From the IMG/VR virus record IMGVR_UViG_2671180986_000010: a DNA stretch of 4,814 nucleotides. One strand, 5' to 3'. This stretch comes from a virus. Lineage: Duplodnaviria > Heunggongvirae > Uroviricota > Caudoviricetes. Every line of letters starts with the position of its first letter. Position 1 is the first letter of the stretch. The notes below the pieces were generated by a model that made no database searches, was not told the DNA's origin, and saw only the letters and a list, made by a program, of their open reading frames with translations. The translations under genes and the position numbers were made by a program. Of the stretch, positions 1 through 4,814 are shown one piece after another.

Positions 1-37
1 AAACACTATCAATAAGTTGGAGTCATTACCCCAATTT

Positions 38-115: not shown

Positions 116-365
116 NNNNNNNNNNNNNNNNNNNNNNNNNNNNNNNNNNNNNNNNNNNNNNNNNNNNNNNNNNNNNNNNNNNNNNNNNNNNNNNNNNNNN
201 NNNNNNNNNNNNNNNNNNNNNNNNNNNNNNNNNNNNNNNNNNNNNNNNNNNNNNNNNNNNNNNNNNNNNNNNNNNNNNNNNNNNNNNNNNNNNNNNNNNN
301 NNNNNNNNNNNNNNNNNNNNNNNNNNNNNNNNNNNNNNNNNNNNNNNNNNNNNNNNNNNNNNNNN
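116..365. other. 250-nt run of N (masked or unknown sequence) upstream of the porin gene
   Basis: Sequence shows only n from 116 to 365; no content can be interpreted. ORFs spanning it in the track are artefacts. Confidence 0.99.
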
Positions 366-2132: not shown

Positions 2133-2217
2133 CAACTTACTCCACAAAAATCAGACCAGAACGCCAATTACAAGCAAAAATCAACAAAACAGTATTAGTT
2201 GATTGTTATCTCTGACT

Positions 2218-2358
2218 TCATACTCCTGCTCCTGTCAGGGTTTTGGCGTAATTCTTCAGTATTCGGTAATCGGTCAAAACAGAACCGGGGAAACGATATA
2301 AGCGCAGATGCCCCCAGCGGTGGCGAAGAAGTTCTGCCATATAAAACTCAAACATCAT
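2218..2358 (-). CDS. ylcG: Small nin-region protein YlcG-like (46 aa), below the ORF-track length cutoff
   Basis: Hand translation of the minus strand: [46 protein letters not shown], stop TGA at 2220-2218. The start ATG overlaps the rusA stop (ATGA-type overlap). Sits between rusA and Q as in DLP12. Confidence 0.6.
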
Positions 2359-2717
2359 TCATTCCCCATTTCGGTGATGGTCAGTTCCAGCCTCCCACCT
2401 TTGGTAACAGGCATCTTCACAACGCGGTAATCAACGACCTGAGCATCATCCAGCCAGAAACCTGCTTTGGTGAGTGCGTCAAAAGCGGCTTTTTGCAGAT
2501 TATCCAGGTCACGGCGACGGCGATCCGGCATGTGGCACTCAATACGGATTTTCACTGGCATAGCCAGGCCGATATCCAGCATTGCGTTTTTAATGATTCG
2601 GGTGACGTTATCGCGGTATGCCTGCCCTTCTGCGCTGATGTGTGTGCGCCCGCGATTATGGCGGTAATAGCGGTTATTGCTCGGAGGCCAGGGTAATGTG
2701 ATGCTGTAGGTATTCAC
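2355..2717 (-). CDS. rusA: Crossover-junction endodeoxyribonuclease RusA (Holliday junction resolvase)
   Basis: 120-aa translation [38 protein letters not shown]...[48 protein letters not shown] matches RusA as I recall it, including the acidic catalytic region. Confidence 0.9.
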
Positions 2718-3004
2718 GCCTTAATAACCCCCTCTTTCAGCCAGATAACCTGCGTTCTCGCCATACCTTCCAGCGCGCATTCTTTTGCATACTCAGCATC
2801 GACAAAATATGTGCGGCGGTCGATTTCGTCGTGACAGGCAGAACATGCAATGGTGGCAATCAGGTCTGGCGGTTTGATACCGGTACCGCACAATCCAGCC
2901 AGCCGGATATGTGCCAGTACTGACGTTTCAGGATTGCCATTACATACGCCAGGGATTCTTACCTGGCATTCCCGACCACGCGCTGCTTTTCTCAAATCAG
3001 CCAT
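2714..3004 (-). CDS. ybcO: YbcO-like nin-region protein (DUF1364, putative Zn-binding nuclease)
   Basis: Translation [64 protein letters not shown]... (96 aa) with Cys/His cluster. Strong SD AAGGAGG 5 nt upstream of the ATG at 3004. The ORF track start at 3043 would overlap ninE in another frame and lacks an SD. Stop overlaps the rusA start (ATGA). Confidence 0.8.
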
Positions 3005-3167
3005 GATTCCTCCTTGCTGCCAGTCGCAACCATTTTTTATCAACCAGGCTAGCGGTATATCCGAGCAGTGTTGGTATTTCGGATGGCTTCAGCTCAGGCT
3101 TACGCTTACGACGATTTGATACTCTGTAGATGTGCCCGTTCATGACACGAATAAGCGGTGTAGCCAT
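2997..3167 (-). CDS. ninE: NinE-family small protein (56 aa), below the ORF-track length cutoff
   Basis: Hand translation: [56 protein letters not shown], stop TGA at 2999-2997. The ATG at 3167 overlaps the ybcN stop (TAATG). Position between the ninB-like gene and ybcO matches lambdoid nin-region order. Confidence 0.7.
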   Translation of the reverse strand: MATPLIRVMNGHIYRVSNRRKRKPELKPSEIPTLLGYTASLVDKKWLRLAARRNHG

Positions 3168-3622
3168 TACGCCTCCTGCTTATCGCGCAGCTGCTGGTAT
3201 TCACAGCTCTGCGGAATTGTCAGGTGGCAGCCGATATTCATCGCCCAGGCTTCGACTTTGCACAGGAAGATGTACATCTCGCCGGTTTCCAGCTCTGACG
3301 TATGGCGGAGGGATTGGACGGTGGTGACCTCGCCGGACACGACATCTACACGGTCTTTGCTTTCGTAGCCGAGATAGGTGTGCTTCATCGCGTCTTTGAC
3401 CCACTCAGGCGTAGCGAAGGTCTTGCCGCGGGCGATGAGATATTCGCTGATCTCCGTGTACCACATGTGGCTGAGCGCGTTCTGCGACAGGCTGCGCTTC
3501 TCGCGCCACGGCTTAACCTGCAGGCGTAAGCATTGCCCGGCATCCAGCAATGGCTGAATCTGCTGGCCGATGGCCGCGAAGTTACCGCGATGGAGTTTGA
3601 TGCCGTCTACTGGCAGAGTCAT
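3167..3622 (-). CDS. ybcN: NinB/YbcN-family protein (DLP12 YbcN-like; recombination / DNA base-flipping protein)
   Basis: 151-aa translation MTLPVDGIKLHRGNFAAIGQQIQPLLDAGQCLRLQVKPWREKRSLSQNALSHMWYTEISEYL... recognised as YbcN-like. GGGAGG SD upstream of the ATG at 3622. First gene of the minus-strand coupled operon in this window. Confidence 0.8.
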   Translation of the reverse strand: MTLPVDGIKLHRGNFAAIGQQIQPLLDAGQCLRLQVKPWREKRSLSQNALSHMWYTEISEYLIARGKTFATPEWVKDAMKHTYLGYESKDRVDVVSGEVTTVQSLRHTSELETGEMYIFLCKVEAWAMNIGCHLTIPQSCEYQQLRDKQEA

Positions 3623-3648
3623 ACGGCCTCCCTAACGGAAACCGCAGA

Positions 3649-3678
3649 ATGCAGAAAATCGCAGGTGCATTTCTGCAT
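3649..3678. promoter_or_regulatory. 9-bp perfect inverted repeat ATGCAGAAA-N12-TTTCTGCAT, 27 nt upstream of ybcN; operator-like or tR2-like terminator candidate
   Basis: Read directly: 3649-3657 is the reverse complement of 3670-3678. Lies between the AT-rich cassette and the nin operon, where lambda carries tR2 upstream of ninB. Confidence 0.3.
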
Positions 3679-3710
3679 CTGTGACAAGGTGATGAGTTCA
3701 GATTGTGGTC

Positions 3711-3732
3711 GCATTTAAGTCCCCTTAAATGC
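3711..3732. promoter_or_regulatory. Hairpin GCATTTAAG-tccc-CTTAAATGC (9-bp stem, 4-nt loop)
   Basis: Perfect inverted repeat read directly; no strong U-tract on either side, so terminator function is uncertain. Confidence 0.3.
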
Positions 3733-3821
3733 GCAGAAGTCACCGGAGTTGTTCAGGCTCCGATGAGAGGATTATGGCGGATTGATTACGATAAATCAAA
3801 ACTATCTTGAAGCCAAAACAG

Positions 3822-3850
3822 TGATCTTCGCTTTAAAAACCTTGTATACT
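3822..3850 (+). promoter_or_regulatory. Weak candidate promoter for the two-gene cassette (TGATCT, 17-nt spacer, TATACT)
   Basis: -10-like TATACT at 3845-3850 with a poor -35; TSS would be about 30 nt upstream of the ATG at 3887. Motif only. Confidence 0.2.
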
Positions 3851-3886
3851 TTCACCTAATCACAGCCAGAACTATGGATCTAACCA

Positions 3887-4264
3887 ATGACCAACAAAGA
3901 AAACAAAGATAAATATATTAACAAGTTCAAGAAAGAGCTTTCAAAATATATACAACCAACTGCTGGAGTGGACATTCAATTATTTAACTCTAAGGATGGT
4001 GGTGGTGTAATTAAAGCCACTTTGAATAGAAGTGGAAAAAGAAAATCATCTATTGCTGGTAATTTTACTAAATTAGGTGAGGCAATTACCTCGAGTGGGC
4101 AGAGGGTTTTTGGTGGTGATCTATCAAATGTGAATTTTTACGGAACAAATACGATTTTTGATGGAGATACAATATTTTTAATTAAATCACCTGATTCAGA
4201 GGAGTGGTCATCACAAAAAGCTTCCAAAGACGTAGAGGGCATCGTATTTGGAGGGAAAAAATGA
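3887..4264 (+). CDS. Hypothetical soluble protein (125 aa), Lys-rich N-terminus, Gly-rich motifs; first gene of AT-rich two-gene cassette
   Basis: ORF MTNKENKDKYINKFKKELSKYIQ...NSKDGGGVIKATLNRSGKRKSS...VFGGDLSNVNFYGTNTIFDGDTIFLIKSPDSEEW...IVFGGKK. No hydrophobic segment and no family recognised. Weak SD. Stop TGA overlaps the ATG of the next gene (ATGA). Confidence 0.6.
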   Translation: MTNKENKDKYINKFKKELSKYIQPTAGVDIQLFNSKDGGGVIKATLNRSGKRKSSIAGNFTKLGEAITSSGQRVFGGDLSNVNFYGTNTIFDGDTIFLIKSPDSEEWSSQKASKDVEGIVFGGKK

Positions 4265-4689
4265 TTAACATTACTACTAAGGATGGCACTCAAGTCAGTG
4301 GTGAAGTAAGAGATCTAGTAATTCTTCTTGAAACTGATGGAAAAACGGTGTCTGATTATTTGCAGCCAATCCCTCCCAAAAAAGATACACACTGGAGCAT
4401 GATTTTCATTCCGGTAGCAATTTATATACTACTTAATCTTGTATACATTATTGCTCACCCATTATTTCCTGAAAAATATCTAAAAACATCAACATCTATA
4501 TTTCTATTCATTTCCTTCATATTAAGTGCAATAGTAGCATATTTTGTTTTCCATAAGCATAAATCTGCCACTCTATCCATATGCAGCTTAGTGTTCTTAG
4601 TGTTAATTGTAGGTGCTAACGTAGGGTTTATCAGTTACAGCGACCTAACACAAAAAGCGACGCAAAAATTAGATAGTTTGTCTAAATAA
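4261..4689 (+). CDS. Hypothetical small membrane protein (142 aa): about 45-aa N-terminal soluble domain plus three predicted TM helices
   Basis: GGAGGG SD 6 nt upstream of the ATG at 4261 (the track's GTG start at 4204 lies inside the upstream gene). Hydrophobic stretches SMIFIPVAIYILLNLVYIIAHPLF, SIFLFISFILSAIVAYFVF and LSICSLVFLVLIVGANVGFISY. Low-GC codon usage. Confidence 0.65.
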   Translation: MINITTKDGTQVSGEVRDLVILLETDGKTVSDYLQPIPPKKDTHWSMIFIPVAIYILLNLVYIIAHPLFPEKYLKTSTSIFLFISFILSAIVAYFVFHKHKSATLSICSLVFLVLIVGANVGFISYSDLTQKATQKLDSLSK

Positions 4690-4696
4690 TTATGTT

Positions 4697-4717
4697 GCCA
4701 TGCGAAGTATGCATGGC
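4697..4717 (+). terminator. Hairpin GCCATGC-gaagtat-GCATGGC just after the cassette stop; weak terminator candidate
   Basis: 7-bp inverted repeat 8 nt after the TAA at 4687-4689, but no clear U-tract follows. Confidence 0.2.
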
Positions 4718-4814
4718 TGCATGTCTGCCTTCCATTTAAAATGGGCTAAGACCTATAACCCTAAATATTATTCTTTATTATCTTCTTTACCACTTCGGTG
4801 ATGCTGCCAACTTA

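What the first reader, a model, noticed from the sequence alone, without database searches (positions are those of the whole stretch)
3733..4814. Compositional island boundary between the nin operon and the cassette
The nin/Q genes (2200-3622) are GC-balanced, with GC-rich codons and runs such as GGGAGG and CGGCG. From about 3780 to the window end the sequence becomes AT-rich (AAAGAAAACAAAGATAAATATATTAAC and similar). A sharp compositional change next to conserved phage genes is typical of horizontally acquired cargo. The right boundary is not in the window, and the last roughly 120 nt stay AT-rich, so the island probably continues.
Basis: seen in the sequence. Interest (0 to 1): 0.45.

Follow-up and report, generated by a model that had tools for sequence, protein, structure and literature searches.

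The report
AT-rich two-gene cargo cassette in prophage
The GC drop is real: it marks a self-contained, roughly 0.95-kb cargo cassette of two unannotated genes (a small soluble protein and a small membrane protein) between a lambda-like prophage's replication and nin genes, it ends inside the window, and the gene pair recurs across bacterial phyla, twice inside known anti-phage systems.

Summary
The compositional shift is confirmed. The maximum-likelihood change point is at 3781 (GC 0.53 to 0.34, log-likelihood ratio 41). GC3 is 0.26-0.28 in the two AT-rich genes against 0.46-0.76 in the nin genes.

orfB stops at 4689, replication gene P stops at 4768, and an IS1 cuts P at 4797/4798. The window's first 30 nt are also an IS1 end.

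The island is a two-gene accessory cassette, antisense to the early-right operon:
- orfA, 3887-4264, 125 aa, soluble.
- orfB, 4261-4689, 142 aa, three TM helices, with an ATGA overlap onto orfA.
- A conserved -10-like box and a conserved stem-loop after orfB travel with it.

It occurs in 46 of 5,426 complete E. coli genomes and in none of 50,697 phage records. Related phages carry other genes, such as ren, at the same slot.

Both genes are under purifying selection (dN/dS 0.07-0.19). Their low GC3 persists where synonymous sites are saturated, so low GC is maintained and is not just a trace of recent import.

A+B is a module conserved across phyla with no Pfam, NCBIfam, PADLOC or PDB match. 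It sits between Type III R-M genes in one locus and upstream of BREX in another.

The kind is ordinary (a moron). The cargo is an untested candidate membrane-acting phage-exclusion module.

The parts
1..30 (.). Terminal 30 nt of an IS1 copy, which is the left end of the window
   Evidence: Exact reverse-complement match to one end (L010 1933-1962) of the annotated IS1A in E. coli CV839-06.
3167..3622 (-). ybcN/NinB-family gene, the last backbone (nin module) gene before the island
   Evidence: Pfam NinB at E 3.6e-5. Annotated 'YbcN family protein' in L001. GC 0.577, GC3 0.76.
3640..3800 (-). Conserved leader of the ylcH/orf33-ybcN module. This is the backbone side of the left junction and holds perfect palindromes at 3649-3678 and 3710-3733.
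   Evidence: Shared at 79-95% identity with phi80, HK225, HK639, phage 82, CobraSix and lambda-like phages, but no further right than 3758-3803. Phage 82 record X92588 annotates orf33, a putative promoter and a regulator-binding site here, and phi80 annotates IR4. Palindromes found.
3781..3803 (.). Left junction of the island, where the GC change point and the homology break point coincide
   Evidence: ML change point at 3781. Homology with cassette-less phages and prophages ends at 3800-3803.
3844..3850 (+). Conserved -10-like box (GTATACT) belonging to the cassette, 36 nt upstream of the orfA ATG
   Evidence: GTATACT / GTATGAT / GTATAAT is conserved in every cassette variant, including those whose upstream DNA is otherwise unrelated. 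The generic promoter scan did not flag it because there is no good -35. Function is inferred.
3876..3878 (+). Shine-Dalgarno-like GGA, 8 nt upstream of the orfA start
   Evidence: GGA(A)TC is conserved across variants. Coordinates checked.
3887..4264 (+). orfA: a 125-aa soluble, Lys-rich protein of an unannotated family (phrog_18061, WP_000182282)
   Evidence: ORF. No TM segment. phrog_18061 at E 9e-85, function unknown. No Pfam, PADLOC or NCBIfam hit. dN/dS 0.07-0.12. 111 clusters at 50% identity in the deep profile search. K100 is invariant; Y10, G39, F84, G86, T87, W107 and D115 are at least 90% conserved.
4261..4689 (+). orfB: a 142-aa membrane protein (phrog_16940, WP_000608370) with a ~44-aa soluble N-terminus and three TM helices; its start overlaps the orfA stop (ATGA)
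   Evidence: ORF. TM-like segments at 47-65, 79-97 and 106-124. The AF2 model shows three long helices. phrog_16940 at E 2e-96. dN/dS 0.07-0.19. Homologous to the partner proteins in other phyla: hhalign probability 97.2%, E 3.6e-11.
4697..4717 (+). Conserved stem-loop GCCATGC-N7-GCATGGC, 7 nt after the orfB stop; a candidate 3' end of the cassette transcript or a binding site
   Evidence: Present in every cassette variant, and homology between divergent contexts ends here (window 4704-4720). It has no U-tract and shows no covariation, so its role is unproven.
4718..4767 (.). Intergenic spacer between the cassette and P. It holds a terminator-like hairpin on the - strand at 4761-4743.
   Evidence: terminator-like site; GC of 4690-4767 is 0.41.
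4768..4797 (-). Last 9 codons plus the stop of replication gene P; this is backbone, and the right limit of the slot
   Evidence: Annotated 'replication protein P' in L001 and L002, ending at the position equal to window 4768. Identity to L001 and L002 runs to 4797 and then stops.
4798..4814 (.). Terminal inverted repeat of a second IS1 copy, inserted in P. It has the same orientation as the IS1 end at 1-30.
   Evidence: GTGATGCTGCCAACTTA matches the other end of IS1A in L010 (2683-2699, reverse complement). The junction is ambiguous by 1 nt (the G at 4797).

Best explanation
SHOWN. The GC drop at 3781-3803 is the left junction between the conserved ylcH-ybcN-nin backbone of a DLP12-type lambdoid prophage and a self-contained accessory cassette (a 'moron') of about 0.95 kb at about 34% GC. 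The cassette occupies the variable slot between replication gene P and the nin genes, where lambda carries ren. It closes inside the window: orfB stops at 4689, a conserved stem-loop lies at 4697-4717, and P stops at 4768. P is then cut by IS1 at 4797/4798.

The cassette is transcribed antisense to the early-right operon. It carries its own conserved -10-like box, an SD-like GGA, two translationally coupled genes and a conserved 3' stem-loop. The genes are orfA (125 aa, soluble) and orfB (142 aa, three TM helices, ATGA overlap). The pair moves as a unit among mosaic lambdoid prophages of Escherichia/Shigella, Enterobacter and Klebsiella. It is the enterobacterial branch of an unannotated two-gene module found across bacterial phyla. 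Its AT-richness is maintained over long divergence, and both genes are under purifying selection.

INFERRED. In the lysogen the early-right promoter is repressed, so the cassette can be expressed from its own promoter. Cytoplasmic OrfA probably binds the cytoplasmic N-terminal domain of OrfB and controls it. On a cue from an infecting phage, OrfB acts at the inner membrane, either by depolarising or permeabilising it (abortive infection) or by blocking genome entry (superinfection exclusion). That would make it work like lambda RexA/RexB without being homologous to them.

My confidence is about 0.9 in the anatomy and the moron reading, and about 0.4 in the phage-exclusion function. The figure below is for the whole statement.
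For: Composition:
- Change point at 3781, log-likelihood ratio 41, with the GC3 contrast.
- The cassette is 0.33-0.36 GC in ten other contexts whose flanks are 0.50-0.55.
- In L001, P is 0.571 and the nin block 0.535 on either side.

Accessory status and slot:
- Present in 46 of 5,426 E. coli genomes and 0 of 50,697 phage records.
- Cassette-less relatives share the flanks but carry ren or other small co-directional genes in the slot.
- Homology breaks at 3800-3803.
- PMC13043305 states that accessory genes are often encoded after the replication genes in lambdoid prophages.

Right end: P annotation and the IS1 termini.

Unit integrity:
- A and B are always adjacent and antisense, with varied neighbours.
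- The conserved -10-like box and stem-loop travel with the cassette.
- The ATGA overlap is present.

Real genes: dN/dS 0.07-0.19.

Wide module:
- The orfA profile finds 111 clusters at 50% identity. The distant clade alone has 478 clusters at 90% identity.
- In all 14 genome loci from Bacteroidota, Myxococcota, Acidobacteriota and Proteobacteria, and in all the extra loci looked up, a 122-154-aa protein with 2-3 TM helices follows directly.
- That partner is homologous to orfB.

Defence or mobile context:
- Between Type III Mod (E 2e-205) and Res (E 2e-290) in L030, and directly upstream of BrxA/B/C in L021.
- Beside KAP-NTPase and SNIPE/T5orf172 in L057, and at a prophage end in L059/60.
- In integrase, IS91, BrnT/A and group II intron islands in L061 and L065.

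Topology: three TM segments. Basic residues precede TM1 (PPKKD) and fill the second loop (HKHKS), which fits an N-terminus-in orientation.
Against: - There is no functional evidence of any kind. No defence, toxin or channel family matches either protein: PADLOC, Pfam, NCBIfam and PDB all came back empty.
- The AF2 models are low-confidence (pLDDT 58.5 and 67.8), and the fold searches were uninformative.
- Only 2 of the 14 distant genome loci are directly embedded in known defence operons. Ten immediate neighbours from six of the other loci gave no PADLOC hit at E <= 1e-8. Many loci lie among housekeeping genes.
- The promoter is inferred from a conserved -10-like box only; there is no convincing -35.
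- The stem-loop has no U-tract and shows no covariation.
- The prophage in this window is a degraded fragment bracketed by IS1, so the cassette may not be doing anything in this particular host.
Confidence: 0.55

Rival explanations
1. The pair is a toxin-antitoxin or addiction-type module. OrfB would be a small membrane toxin and OrfA its cognate protein antitoxin. The module would stabilise the prophage or island that carries it, rather than (or as well as) excluding phages.
For: The architecture is that of a classic TA pair: two small genes with a 4-nt overlap, a soluble protein first and a membrane protein second. It occurs in integrase, IS and TA-rich islands (BrnT/BrnA in L061; YjhX toxin nearby in L055). 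It persists in a degraded prophage fragment bracketed by IS1.
Against: Neither protein matches any toxin or antitoxin family in Pfam, NCBIfam or PADLOC. OrfA has no recognisable DNA-binding domain for autoregulation. In E. coli CV839-06 an IS1 disrupts orfA while orfB stays intact and is still annotated. That is hard to reconcile with OrfA being an essential antidote to a constitutively toxic OrfB, unless orfB is silent there.
Confidence: 0.2
2. This is the first reader's reading taken literally: the low GC is a fresh footprint of recent horizontal import from a low-GC donor, and the window catches only the start of a larger foreign island.
For: The junction is sharp. Distribution is patchy. 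Family members in Flavobacteriia sit at the GC of their own genomes (0.28-0.31 against 0.30-0.32), so a low-GC lineage is a plausible ultimate source.
Against: The island closes at 4689-4767 and is followed by P. Enterobacterial variants that differ by dS 1.4-2.8 keep the same GC3 of 0.25-0.32 and the same cassette GC of 0.33-0.36 in Escherichia, Enterobacter and Klebsiella. The composition has therefore been held through long residence in hosts and phages of 50-57% GC. The nearest non-enterobacterial relatives are only about 30% identical, so no recent donor is visible.
Confidence: 0.1
3. The cassette is a lysogenic-conversion cargo unrelated to phage or plasmid conflict. For example, it could be a small membrane transporter or stress protein with a cytoplasmic partner that changes host physiology.
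For: OrfB is a small polytopic membrane protein, and one source labels it 'VIT1/CCC1 family predicted Fe2+/Mn2+ transporter'. Many distant loci lie among housekeeping genes.
Against: The VIT1 label has no support from Pfam or NCBIfam at any threshold. Three TM helices in 142 aa is small for a transporter. The recurrent placement in prophage accessory slots, integrase islands and inside R-M and BREX operons points to conflict systems.
Confidence: 0.1
4. The compositional shift is chance or ordinary backbone heterogeneity with no biological unit behind it.
For: Lambdoid prophages are compositionally patchy. In L001 the SD of GC across 800-nt windows is 0.063, and another block is equally AT-rich.
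Against: The log-likelihood ratio is 41 for a single change point. The change point coincides to within about 20 nt with an independent homology break point. The AT-rich block corresponds exactly to a conserved, selected two-gene unit. The other AT-rich block in L001 is also accessory cargo.
Confidence: 0.02

Closest known systems
Morons of lambdoid phages (Hendrix/Juhala concept; examples are lambda bor, lom and rexAB, and HK97 gp15); this item is from my own knowledge
   Same: Extra genes are present in some but not other otherwise collinear phages at one position. Their base composition differs from the backbone. They have their own transcription signals, and their orientation allows expression from the repressed prophage.
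   Different: Expression from the prophage, and the function of the promoter and terminator, are inferred here and not shown. The cargo belongs to no characterised moron family.
Lambda ren and the variable genes between P and ninB / ylcH-ybcN
   Same: The chromosomal slot is the same. Prophages L007 and L008 and phages phi80, HK225 and CobraSix carry ren or other small genes exactly between P and the conserved ylcH-ybcN leader.
   Different: Those genes are co-directional with the early-right operon and are not AT-rich islands with their own signals. The A+B cassette is antisense and shares no sequence with them.
Lambda RexA/RexB abortive-infection (exclusion) system; the mechanism is from my own knowledge
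   Same: It is a prophage-borne two-gene unit expressed in the lysogen. A soluble partner is paired with a small polytopic inner-membrane protein of about 140 aa, and the unit is carried as accessory cargo. This is the working analogy for how A+B might act.
   Different: No sequence relationship was detected. PADLOC and Pfam gave no hit of any kind, at E up to 1 and 0.1 respectively. OrfA (125 aa) is less than half the size of RexA. OrfB has three predicted TM helices, not four. The genomic position is different.
Accessory genes embedded in BREX and Type III restriction-modification loci
   Same: Distant A+B pairs lie directly upstream of brxA-brxB-brxC (L021) and between the Type III mod and res genes (L030).
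   Different: This was seen in only 2 of the 14 distant genome loci. Nothing shows that the pair depends functionally on those systems, and the enterobacterial copies are not next to BREX or R-M.

Membership tests
Moron (accessory cassette of a lambdoid phage) | Present in some but absent from other related phages at the same collinear position | tested here: met
   46 of 5,426 E. coli genomes and 0 of 50,697 phage records carry it. Relatives with the same flanks carry other genes there.
Moron (accessory cassette of a lambdoid phage) | Nucleotide composition distinct from the surrounding backbone | tested here: met
   GC 0.34 against 0.53 and 0.57, change point at 3781, log-likelihood ratio 41. 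The same contrast holds in ten other contexts.
Moron (accessory cassette of a lambdoid phage) | Own promoter and terminator flanking the gene(s) | tested here: inconclusive
   A conserved -10-like box (3844-3850) and a stem-loop (4697-4717) travel with the cassette. There is no clear -35 and no U-tract, the consensus scan did not flag either element, and there is no covariation.
Moron (accessory cassette of a lambdoid phage) | Expressed from the repressed prophage | not testable with these tools
   This needs RNA-seq or 5'-RACE of a lysogen. The antisense orientation to the early-right operon is compatible with it.
Known anti-phage defence systems (PADLOC-DB 2.0.0, which to my knowledge includes RexAB) | Protein matches an HMM of a described or candidate defence component | tested here: not met
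   The window's orfA and orfB gave 0 families at E <= 1. The L021 homologues gave 0 families.
Defence-island gene (guilt by association) | Recurrent location next to known defence genes across unrelated genomes | tested here: inconclusive
   2 of 14 distant genome loci lie inside or adjacent to Type III R-M or BREX, and 1 extra locus lies next to KAP-NTPase and SNIPE/T5orf172. The other immediate neighbours that I scanned gave no PADLOC hits, and many are housekeeping genes. No background-corrected enrichment was computed.
Type II toxin-antitoxin module | Two small, adjacent, translationally coupled genes | tested here: met
   125 aa and 142 aa with an ATGA overlap. There is a 4-nt overlap in 7 of the 14 distant loci, and the remaining pairs abut or overlap.
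Type II toxin-antitoxin module | Homology of either protein to a known toxin or antitoxin (or DNA-binding antitoxin) domain | tested here: not met
   No Pfam, NCBIfam or PADLOC hit, even for distant members.
Type II toxin-antitoxin module | Toxicity of one partner that is neutralised by the other | not testable with these tools
   This needs expression experiments. One indirect observation: strain CV839-06 keeps orfB intact although IS1 has disrupted orfA.
IS1 composite transposon carrying the prophage fragment | Two IS1 copies bracketing the segment | tested here: inconclusive
   Both window ends are IS1 termini in direct orientation. Only 30 nt and 17 nt are visible, and this pattern is also what a short-read contig broken at IS1 repeats looks like.
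IS1 composite transposon carrying the prophage fragment | Target-site duplication outside the two IS copies | not testable with these tools
   The sequence beyond the IS1 ends is not in the window.

The most novel reading that the evidence does not exclude
OrfA+OrfB is the enterobacterial, prophage-borne branch of a previously undescribed two-gene anti-phage system that is widespread across phyla. A small cytoplasmic sensor or regulator is translationally coupled to a three-TM membrane effector. The system has no homology to any catalogued defence system and is carried as a portable AT-rich cassette in lambdoid prophages, integrase islands, and BREX and Type III R-M loci.
Probability: 0.35. 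Interest if true: 0.65.

Novelty: new member of a known kind. Interest (0 to 1): 0.4.

Why it matters
As a compositional boundary this is textbook moron biology and would not surprise a specialist.

The value lies in what the boundary delimits. It is a compact unit of about 0.95 kb with sharply defined ends, so it is easy to clone. Its two proteins have no Pfam, DUF, NCBIfam, PADLOC or PDB relative, yet they form a module conserved across phyla: at least 111 clusters at 50% identity, with 478 clusters at 90% identity in the distant clade alone. The module is under purifying selection and recurs in prophage accessory slots, in integrase islands, and inside BREX and Type III R-M loci.

If it excludes phages, it adds a very small membrane-acting system to the defence catalogue. 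It would also show that the P-nin junction of lambdoid prophages is a place to look for such systems.

The persistence of about 34% GC and GC3 of about 0.27 across saturated synonymous divergence, in hosts of 50-57% GC, is a clean case against reading low GC as 'recently acquired'.

Tried and rejected
- Family searches. Pfam, NCBIfam and PADLOC gave nothing for either protein, including for distant members. PHROGs returned only two 'unknown function' families.
- PDB profile search. Only chance-level hits, E >= 0.025.
- Structure prediction. The AF2 models came from shallow alignments and are weak, with pLDDT 58.5 and 67.8.
- Rfam at E <= 1 over 3500-4814: no match.
- Transposon-like ends. There are no terminal inverted or direct repeats around the cassette. 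One 13-nt imperfect direct repeat near both edges (3826-3838 and 4729-4741) is poorly kept in Enterobacter variants and is probably chance.
- The consensus promoter/terminator scan did not flag the conserved -10 box or the stem-loop.
- RNAalifold on the stem-loop showed no convincing covariation, because the arms are conserved in sequence and the ungapped alignment was imperfect.
- Literature. No paper cites WP_000182282, WP_000608370 or the PHROG ids. Searches on hotspots and nin-region morons gave general context only.
- The search for related loci with the 72-sequence alignment failed because no stretch was conserved enough. I repeated it with a sub-clade.
- Coordinates transferred from L002 for the 33-aa ylcH/orf33 ORF gave a reading frame with no start codon in the window. 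I did not resolve whether ylcH is intact here.
- Rejected reading: 'the island continues past 4814'.
- Rejected reading: 'low GC means recent import'.
Full report
**1. What the window is**

The window is a fragment of a DLP12-type lambdoid prophage read in reverse orientation. The genes are:
- an ompC/nmpC-like porin on the + strand;
- on the - strand, the antiterminator Q/quuD (1749-2147), ylcG, rusA (2355-2717), ybcO (2714-3043), ninE (2997-3167) and ybcN/NinB (3167-3622).

Two stretches are N-masked, 116-365 and 539-569. The early-right operon therefore runs right to left in window coordinates.

Yes for the shift.
- Sliding GC falls from 0.50-0.60 to 0.30-0.40.
- A two-segment likelihood scan over 2200-4767 places the change point at 3781, with GC 0.526 on the left, 0.344 on the right and a log-likelihood ratio of 41.
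- Third-position GC is 0.26 and 0.28 in the two AT-rich ORFs, against 0.46-0.76 in the nin genes.

- Over 19 kb, the mean GC of 800-nt windows is 0.466 with an SD of 0.063.
- The cassette is 0.337 (z = -2.1), the nin block 0.535 and P 0.571.
- Another accessory block, ImmA/IrrE+DUF4411 next to the repressor gene, is just as AT-rich at 0.334.

So the drop is sharp and significant, but it is one of several cargo-associated AT-rich patches.

**3. The right end is inside the window**

It does not.
- orfB stops at 4689.
- The stop codon of replication gene P (- strand) is at 4768, as annotated in L001 and L002.
- Identity to those genomes ends abruptly at 4797.
- The last 17 nt, GTGATGCTGCCAACTTA, are the terminal repeat of IS1. 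They match exactly one end of the annotated IS1A in E. coli CV839-06.
- The first 30 nt of the window are the other IS1 end, in the same orientation.

The 'last ~120 nt' (GC 0.39) therefore consist of 73 nt of intergenic DNA, 30 nt of P and 17 nt of IS1. The window is a prophage fragment of about 4.77 kb bracketed by IS1 ends. That could be a composite-transposon-like arrangement, or simply a short-read contig broken at IS1 copies. The second reading fits an IS1-rich host such as Shigella sonnei, where identical proteins are abundant.

**4. The left end**

Cassette-less phages and prophages share the ybcN gene and a conserved leader of about 160 nt upstream of it. This group includes phage 82, CobraSix and two E. 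coli prophages.
- Their homology to the window stops at 3800-3803. For phi80, HK225 and L009 it stops at 3758.
- That is within about 20 nt of the GC change point.
- The leader corresponds to orf33/ylcH plus a putative promoter and regulator-binding site in the phage 82 record, and to IR4 in phi80. It holds two perfect palindromes, at 3649-3678 and 3710-3733.
- Beyond it, each relative carries different genes before P: ren and small ORFs in L007 and L008, an N15 gp45-like gene in phi80 and L009, and several small genes in HK225 and CobraSix. All of them run in the same direction as the operon.

The slot is therefore a variable cargo position. PMC13043305 says the same of lambdoid prophages in general.

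**5. Anatomy of the island**

Between 3801 and 4767 there are two + strand genes, antisense to the operon.
- orfA, 3887-4264, encodes a 125-aa Lys-rich protein with no hydrophobic segment.
- orfB, 4261-4689, encodes a 142-aa protein with an N-terminal soluble region of about 44 aa and three TM-like segments at 47-65, 79-97 and 106-124.
- The orfA stop and the orfB start overlap as ATGA.

Two non-coding elements are conserved across cassette variants, even where the surrounding DNA is unrelated:
- a -10-like box (GTATACT / GTATGAT / GTATAAT; window 3844-3850) 36 nt upstream of the ATG, with an SD-like GGA at 3876-3878;
- a stem-loop, GCCATGC-N7-GCATGGC (4697-4717), just after the orfB stop.

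In the most divergent contexts, DNA homology covers only 3886-4704. I found no transposon-like terminal repeats and no Rfam family. This is the anatomy of a moron, although promoter and terminator function are inferred. There is no good -35, no U-tract and no covariation.

**6. Distribution and mobility**

- The cassette is in 46 of 5,426 complete E. coli genomes, always between P and ybcN, and in none of 50,697 deposited phage genomes. It is on 18 IMG/VR prophage contigs.
- The protein families are narrow at close range: 13 and 17 clusters at 90% identity, all Enterobacteriaceae.
- In Enterobacter and Klebsiella prophages the pair is again adjacent, antisense, and located between the replication and nin modules. 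Its neighbours differ, though: YbcN or DUF1367 on one side, and P, Ead/Ea22 or other small genes on the other. The prophages carry DnaB-, DnaC- or P-type replication modules. One locus (L016) has colicin-like, immunity and DndB-like genes in the same interval.
- Cassette GC is 0.334-0.355 in all ten contexts, against flanks of 0.50-0.55.

**7. Selection and composition**

Pairwise dN/dS is 0.07-0.19 for both genes, while dS reaches 1.4-2.8 between the E. coli and Klebsiella-type variants. GC3 stays at 0.25-0.32 throughout. So these are real, constrained genes. Their AT-richness has been maintained through divergence that saturates synonymous sites, inside GC-balanced phages and hosts. This contradicts the simple equation of low GC with recent import. 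It points instead to a maintained property of the cassette. Possible reasons are selection on expression or silencing (H-NS, for example), or AT-biased evolution in the accessory gene pool. I could not tell these apart.

**8. A module conserved across phyla**

- A profile of orfA searched against 1.84 billion representatives found 111 clusters with E <= 0.001, nearly all full-length proteins of 120-135 aa.
- A 72-sequence alignment shows an invariant Lys (K100), with Y10, G39, F84, G86, T87, W107 and D115 at least 90% conserved.
- A scan of one genome per species with a distant sub-clade gave 14 usable loci. They come from Flavobacteriia, Bacteroides, Lentimicrobium, Myxococcales, Deltaproteobacteria, Acidobacteriota and a betaproteobacterium.
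- In every one, the orfA homologue is followed directly by a 125-154-aa protein with a short soluble N-terminus and 2-3 TM segments. Seven of the 14 have the same 4-nt overlap.
- These partners are homologous to orfB: hhalign probability 97.2%, E 3.6e-11 over 109 columns.
- The distant clade alone has 478 clusters at 90% identity, all annotated 'hypothetical'.
- The module's GC is clearly below its surroundings in L021, L022, L026, L029, L030, L033 and L034. It equals the local GC in most of the Flavobacteriia loci.

No Pfam, NCBIfam, PADLOC or PDB relative exists for either family, even among distant members.

**9. Context as a clue to function**

- In L030 (Bacteroides) the pair sits between the Type III methyltransferase (E 2e-205) and the restriction enzyme (E 2e-290).
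- In L021 it lies directly upstream of brxA-brxB-brxC.
- In Acinetobacter dispersus it is next to KAP-NTPase and SNIPE/T5orf172 genes.
- In A. johnsonii it lies at a prophage end, beside lysozyme and tail-fibre genes.
- In two metagenomic lineages it lies in islands with a tyrosine integrase and a group II intron reverse transcriptase; one of them also carries an IS91 transposase and BrnT/BrnA.
- Against this, ten immediate neighbours from six other loci gave no PADLOC hit. Several loci are small islets among housekeeping genes, such as between a response regulator and ValRS. In A. baumannii it sits among small accessory genes.

The association with conflict systems and mobile elements is recurrent, but it is not quantified against a background.

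**10. Most likely mechanism (inferred)**

In the lysogen the early-right promoter is off, so antisense transcription does not oppose the cassette's own promoter. Translational coupling suggests that OrfA and OrfB are made together and form a complex. Basic residues precede TM1 and fill the second loop (HKHKS), which fits a cytoplasmic OrfB N-terminal domain that OrfA could reach.

The simplest model has OrfA as a cytoplasmic sensor or regulator and OrfB as a small oligomerising membrane effector. OrfB would either collapse the membrane potential on infection (abortive infection) or block genome entry. This is how lambda RexA/RexB is thought to work. Membership of that family is excluded by the lack of any detectable homology.

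The main rival is a membrane-toxin/antitoxin addiction module. One observation argues weakly against OrfA being an indispensable antidote: strain CV839-06 has orfA disrupted by IS1 and orfB intact.

**11. Verdict**

The claim about the right side is wrong.
- The interpretation 'acquired cargo next to conserved phage genes' is right in kind. It is wrong in extent, and in what the low GC implies.
- As a class (a moron at a known variable slot) it is ordinary.
- The cargo is an uncharacterised, compact, widely conserved two-gene module and a reasonable candidate for experimental testing.
- Overall interest is 0.4. The reading that it is a new defence system has a probability of about 0.35, and would merit about 0.65 if true.

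Noticed in passing
window 1-30 and 4798-4814: Both ends of the window are IS1 termini in the same orientation, so the roughly 4.77-kb prophage fragment is bracketed by IS1. The right-hand copy sits 30 nt inside the 3' end of replication gene P. This is either a composite-transposon-like structure or a contig broken at IS1 repeats, as expected in an IS1-rich host such as Shigella sonnei.
   Followed up: partly
L010 (E. coli CV839-06) 1934-2700, equivalent to window ~4023-4032: An independent IS1A insertion disrupts orfA in this strain, with a 10-nt overlap of the flanks that looks like a target duplication. orfB remains intact and annotated. IS1 has therefore hit this AT-rich cassette region at least twice.
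   Followed up: partly
window 3640-3800 (palindromes at 3649-3678 and 3710-3733): A leader of about 160 nt upstream of ybcN is conserved at 79-95% identity in many otherwise different lambdoid phages (phi80 IR4, phage 82 orf33 with a putative promoter and regulator site, HK225, HK639, CobraSix). It looks like a module-boundary or regulatory element. Coordinates transferred from L002 for the 33-aa ylcH ORF gave a frame with no start codon in the window.
   Followed up: partly
L001 13625-15273: A second accessory block in the same prophage type, ImmA/IrrE metallopeptidase plus DUF4411 next to the repressor gene, is equally AT-rich (GC 0.334). In strain BH100N a different pair occupies that position (a 353-aa hypothetical protein plus an ASCH-domain protein).
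   Followed up: no
L016 3665-5348 and 7850-8971: In one enterobacterial prophage the same replication-to-nin interval also carries a colicin-like gene with a colicin-immunity-like gene and a DndB-like gene. There the ylcH leader lies about 2.6 kb from the cassette, so this slot can stack several cargo units.
   Followed up: no
window 116-365 and 539-569: Two N-masked stretches lie upstream of and inside the 5' part of the porin (ompC/nmpC-like) gene. They make the GC profile of the first 600 nt meaningless.
   Followed up: no
window 3826-3838 and 4729-4741: An imperfect 13-nt direct repeat (CTTCGCTTTAAAA / CTTCCATTTAAAA, 11 of 13 identical) lies close to both edges of the cassette. It is poorly conserved in the Enterobacter variants and is probably chance, but its position is suggestive.
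   Followed up: partly
window 4587-4604: A perfect tandem duplication of 9 nt (CTTAGTGTT x2) lies inside orfB and encodes part of TM3 (LVFLVL).
   Followed up: no
L030 1969-7919: In an uncultured Bacteroides genome the A+B pair is inserted between the mod and res genes of a Type III restriction-modification system. That is an unusual place for unrelated genes.
   Followed up: partly
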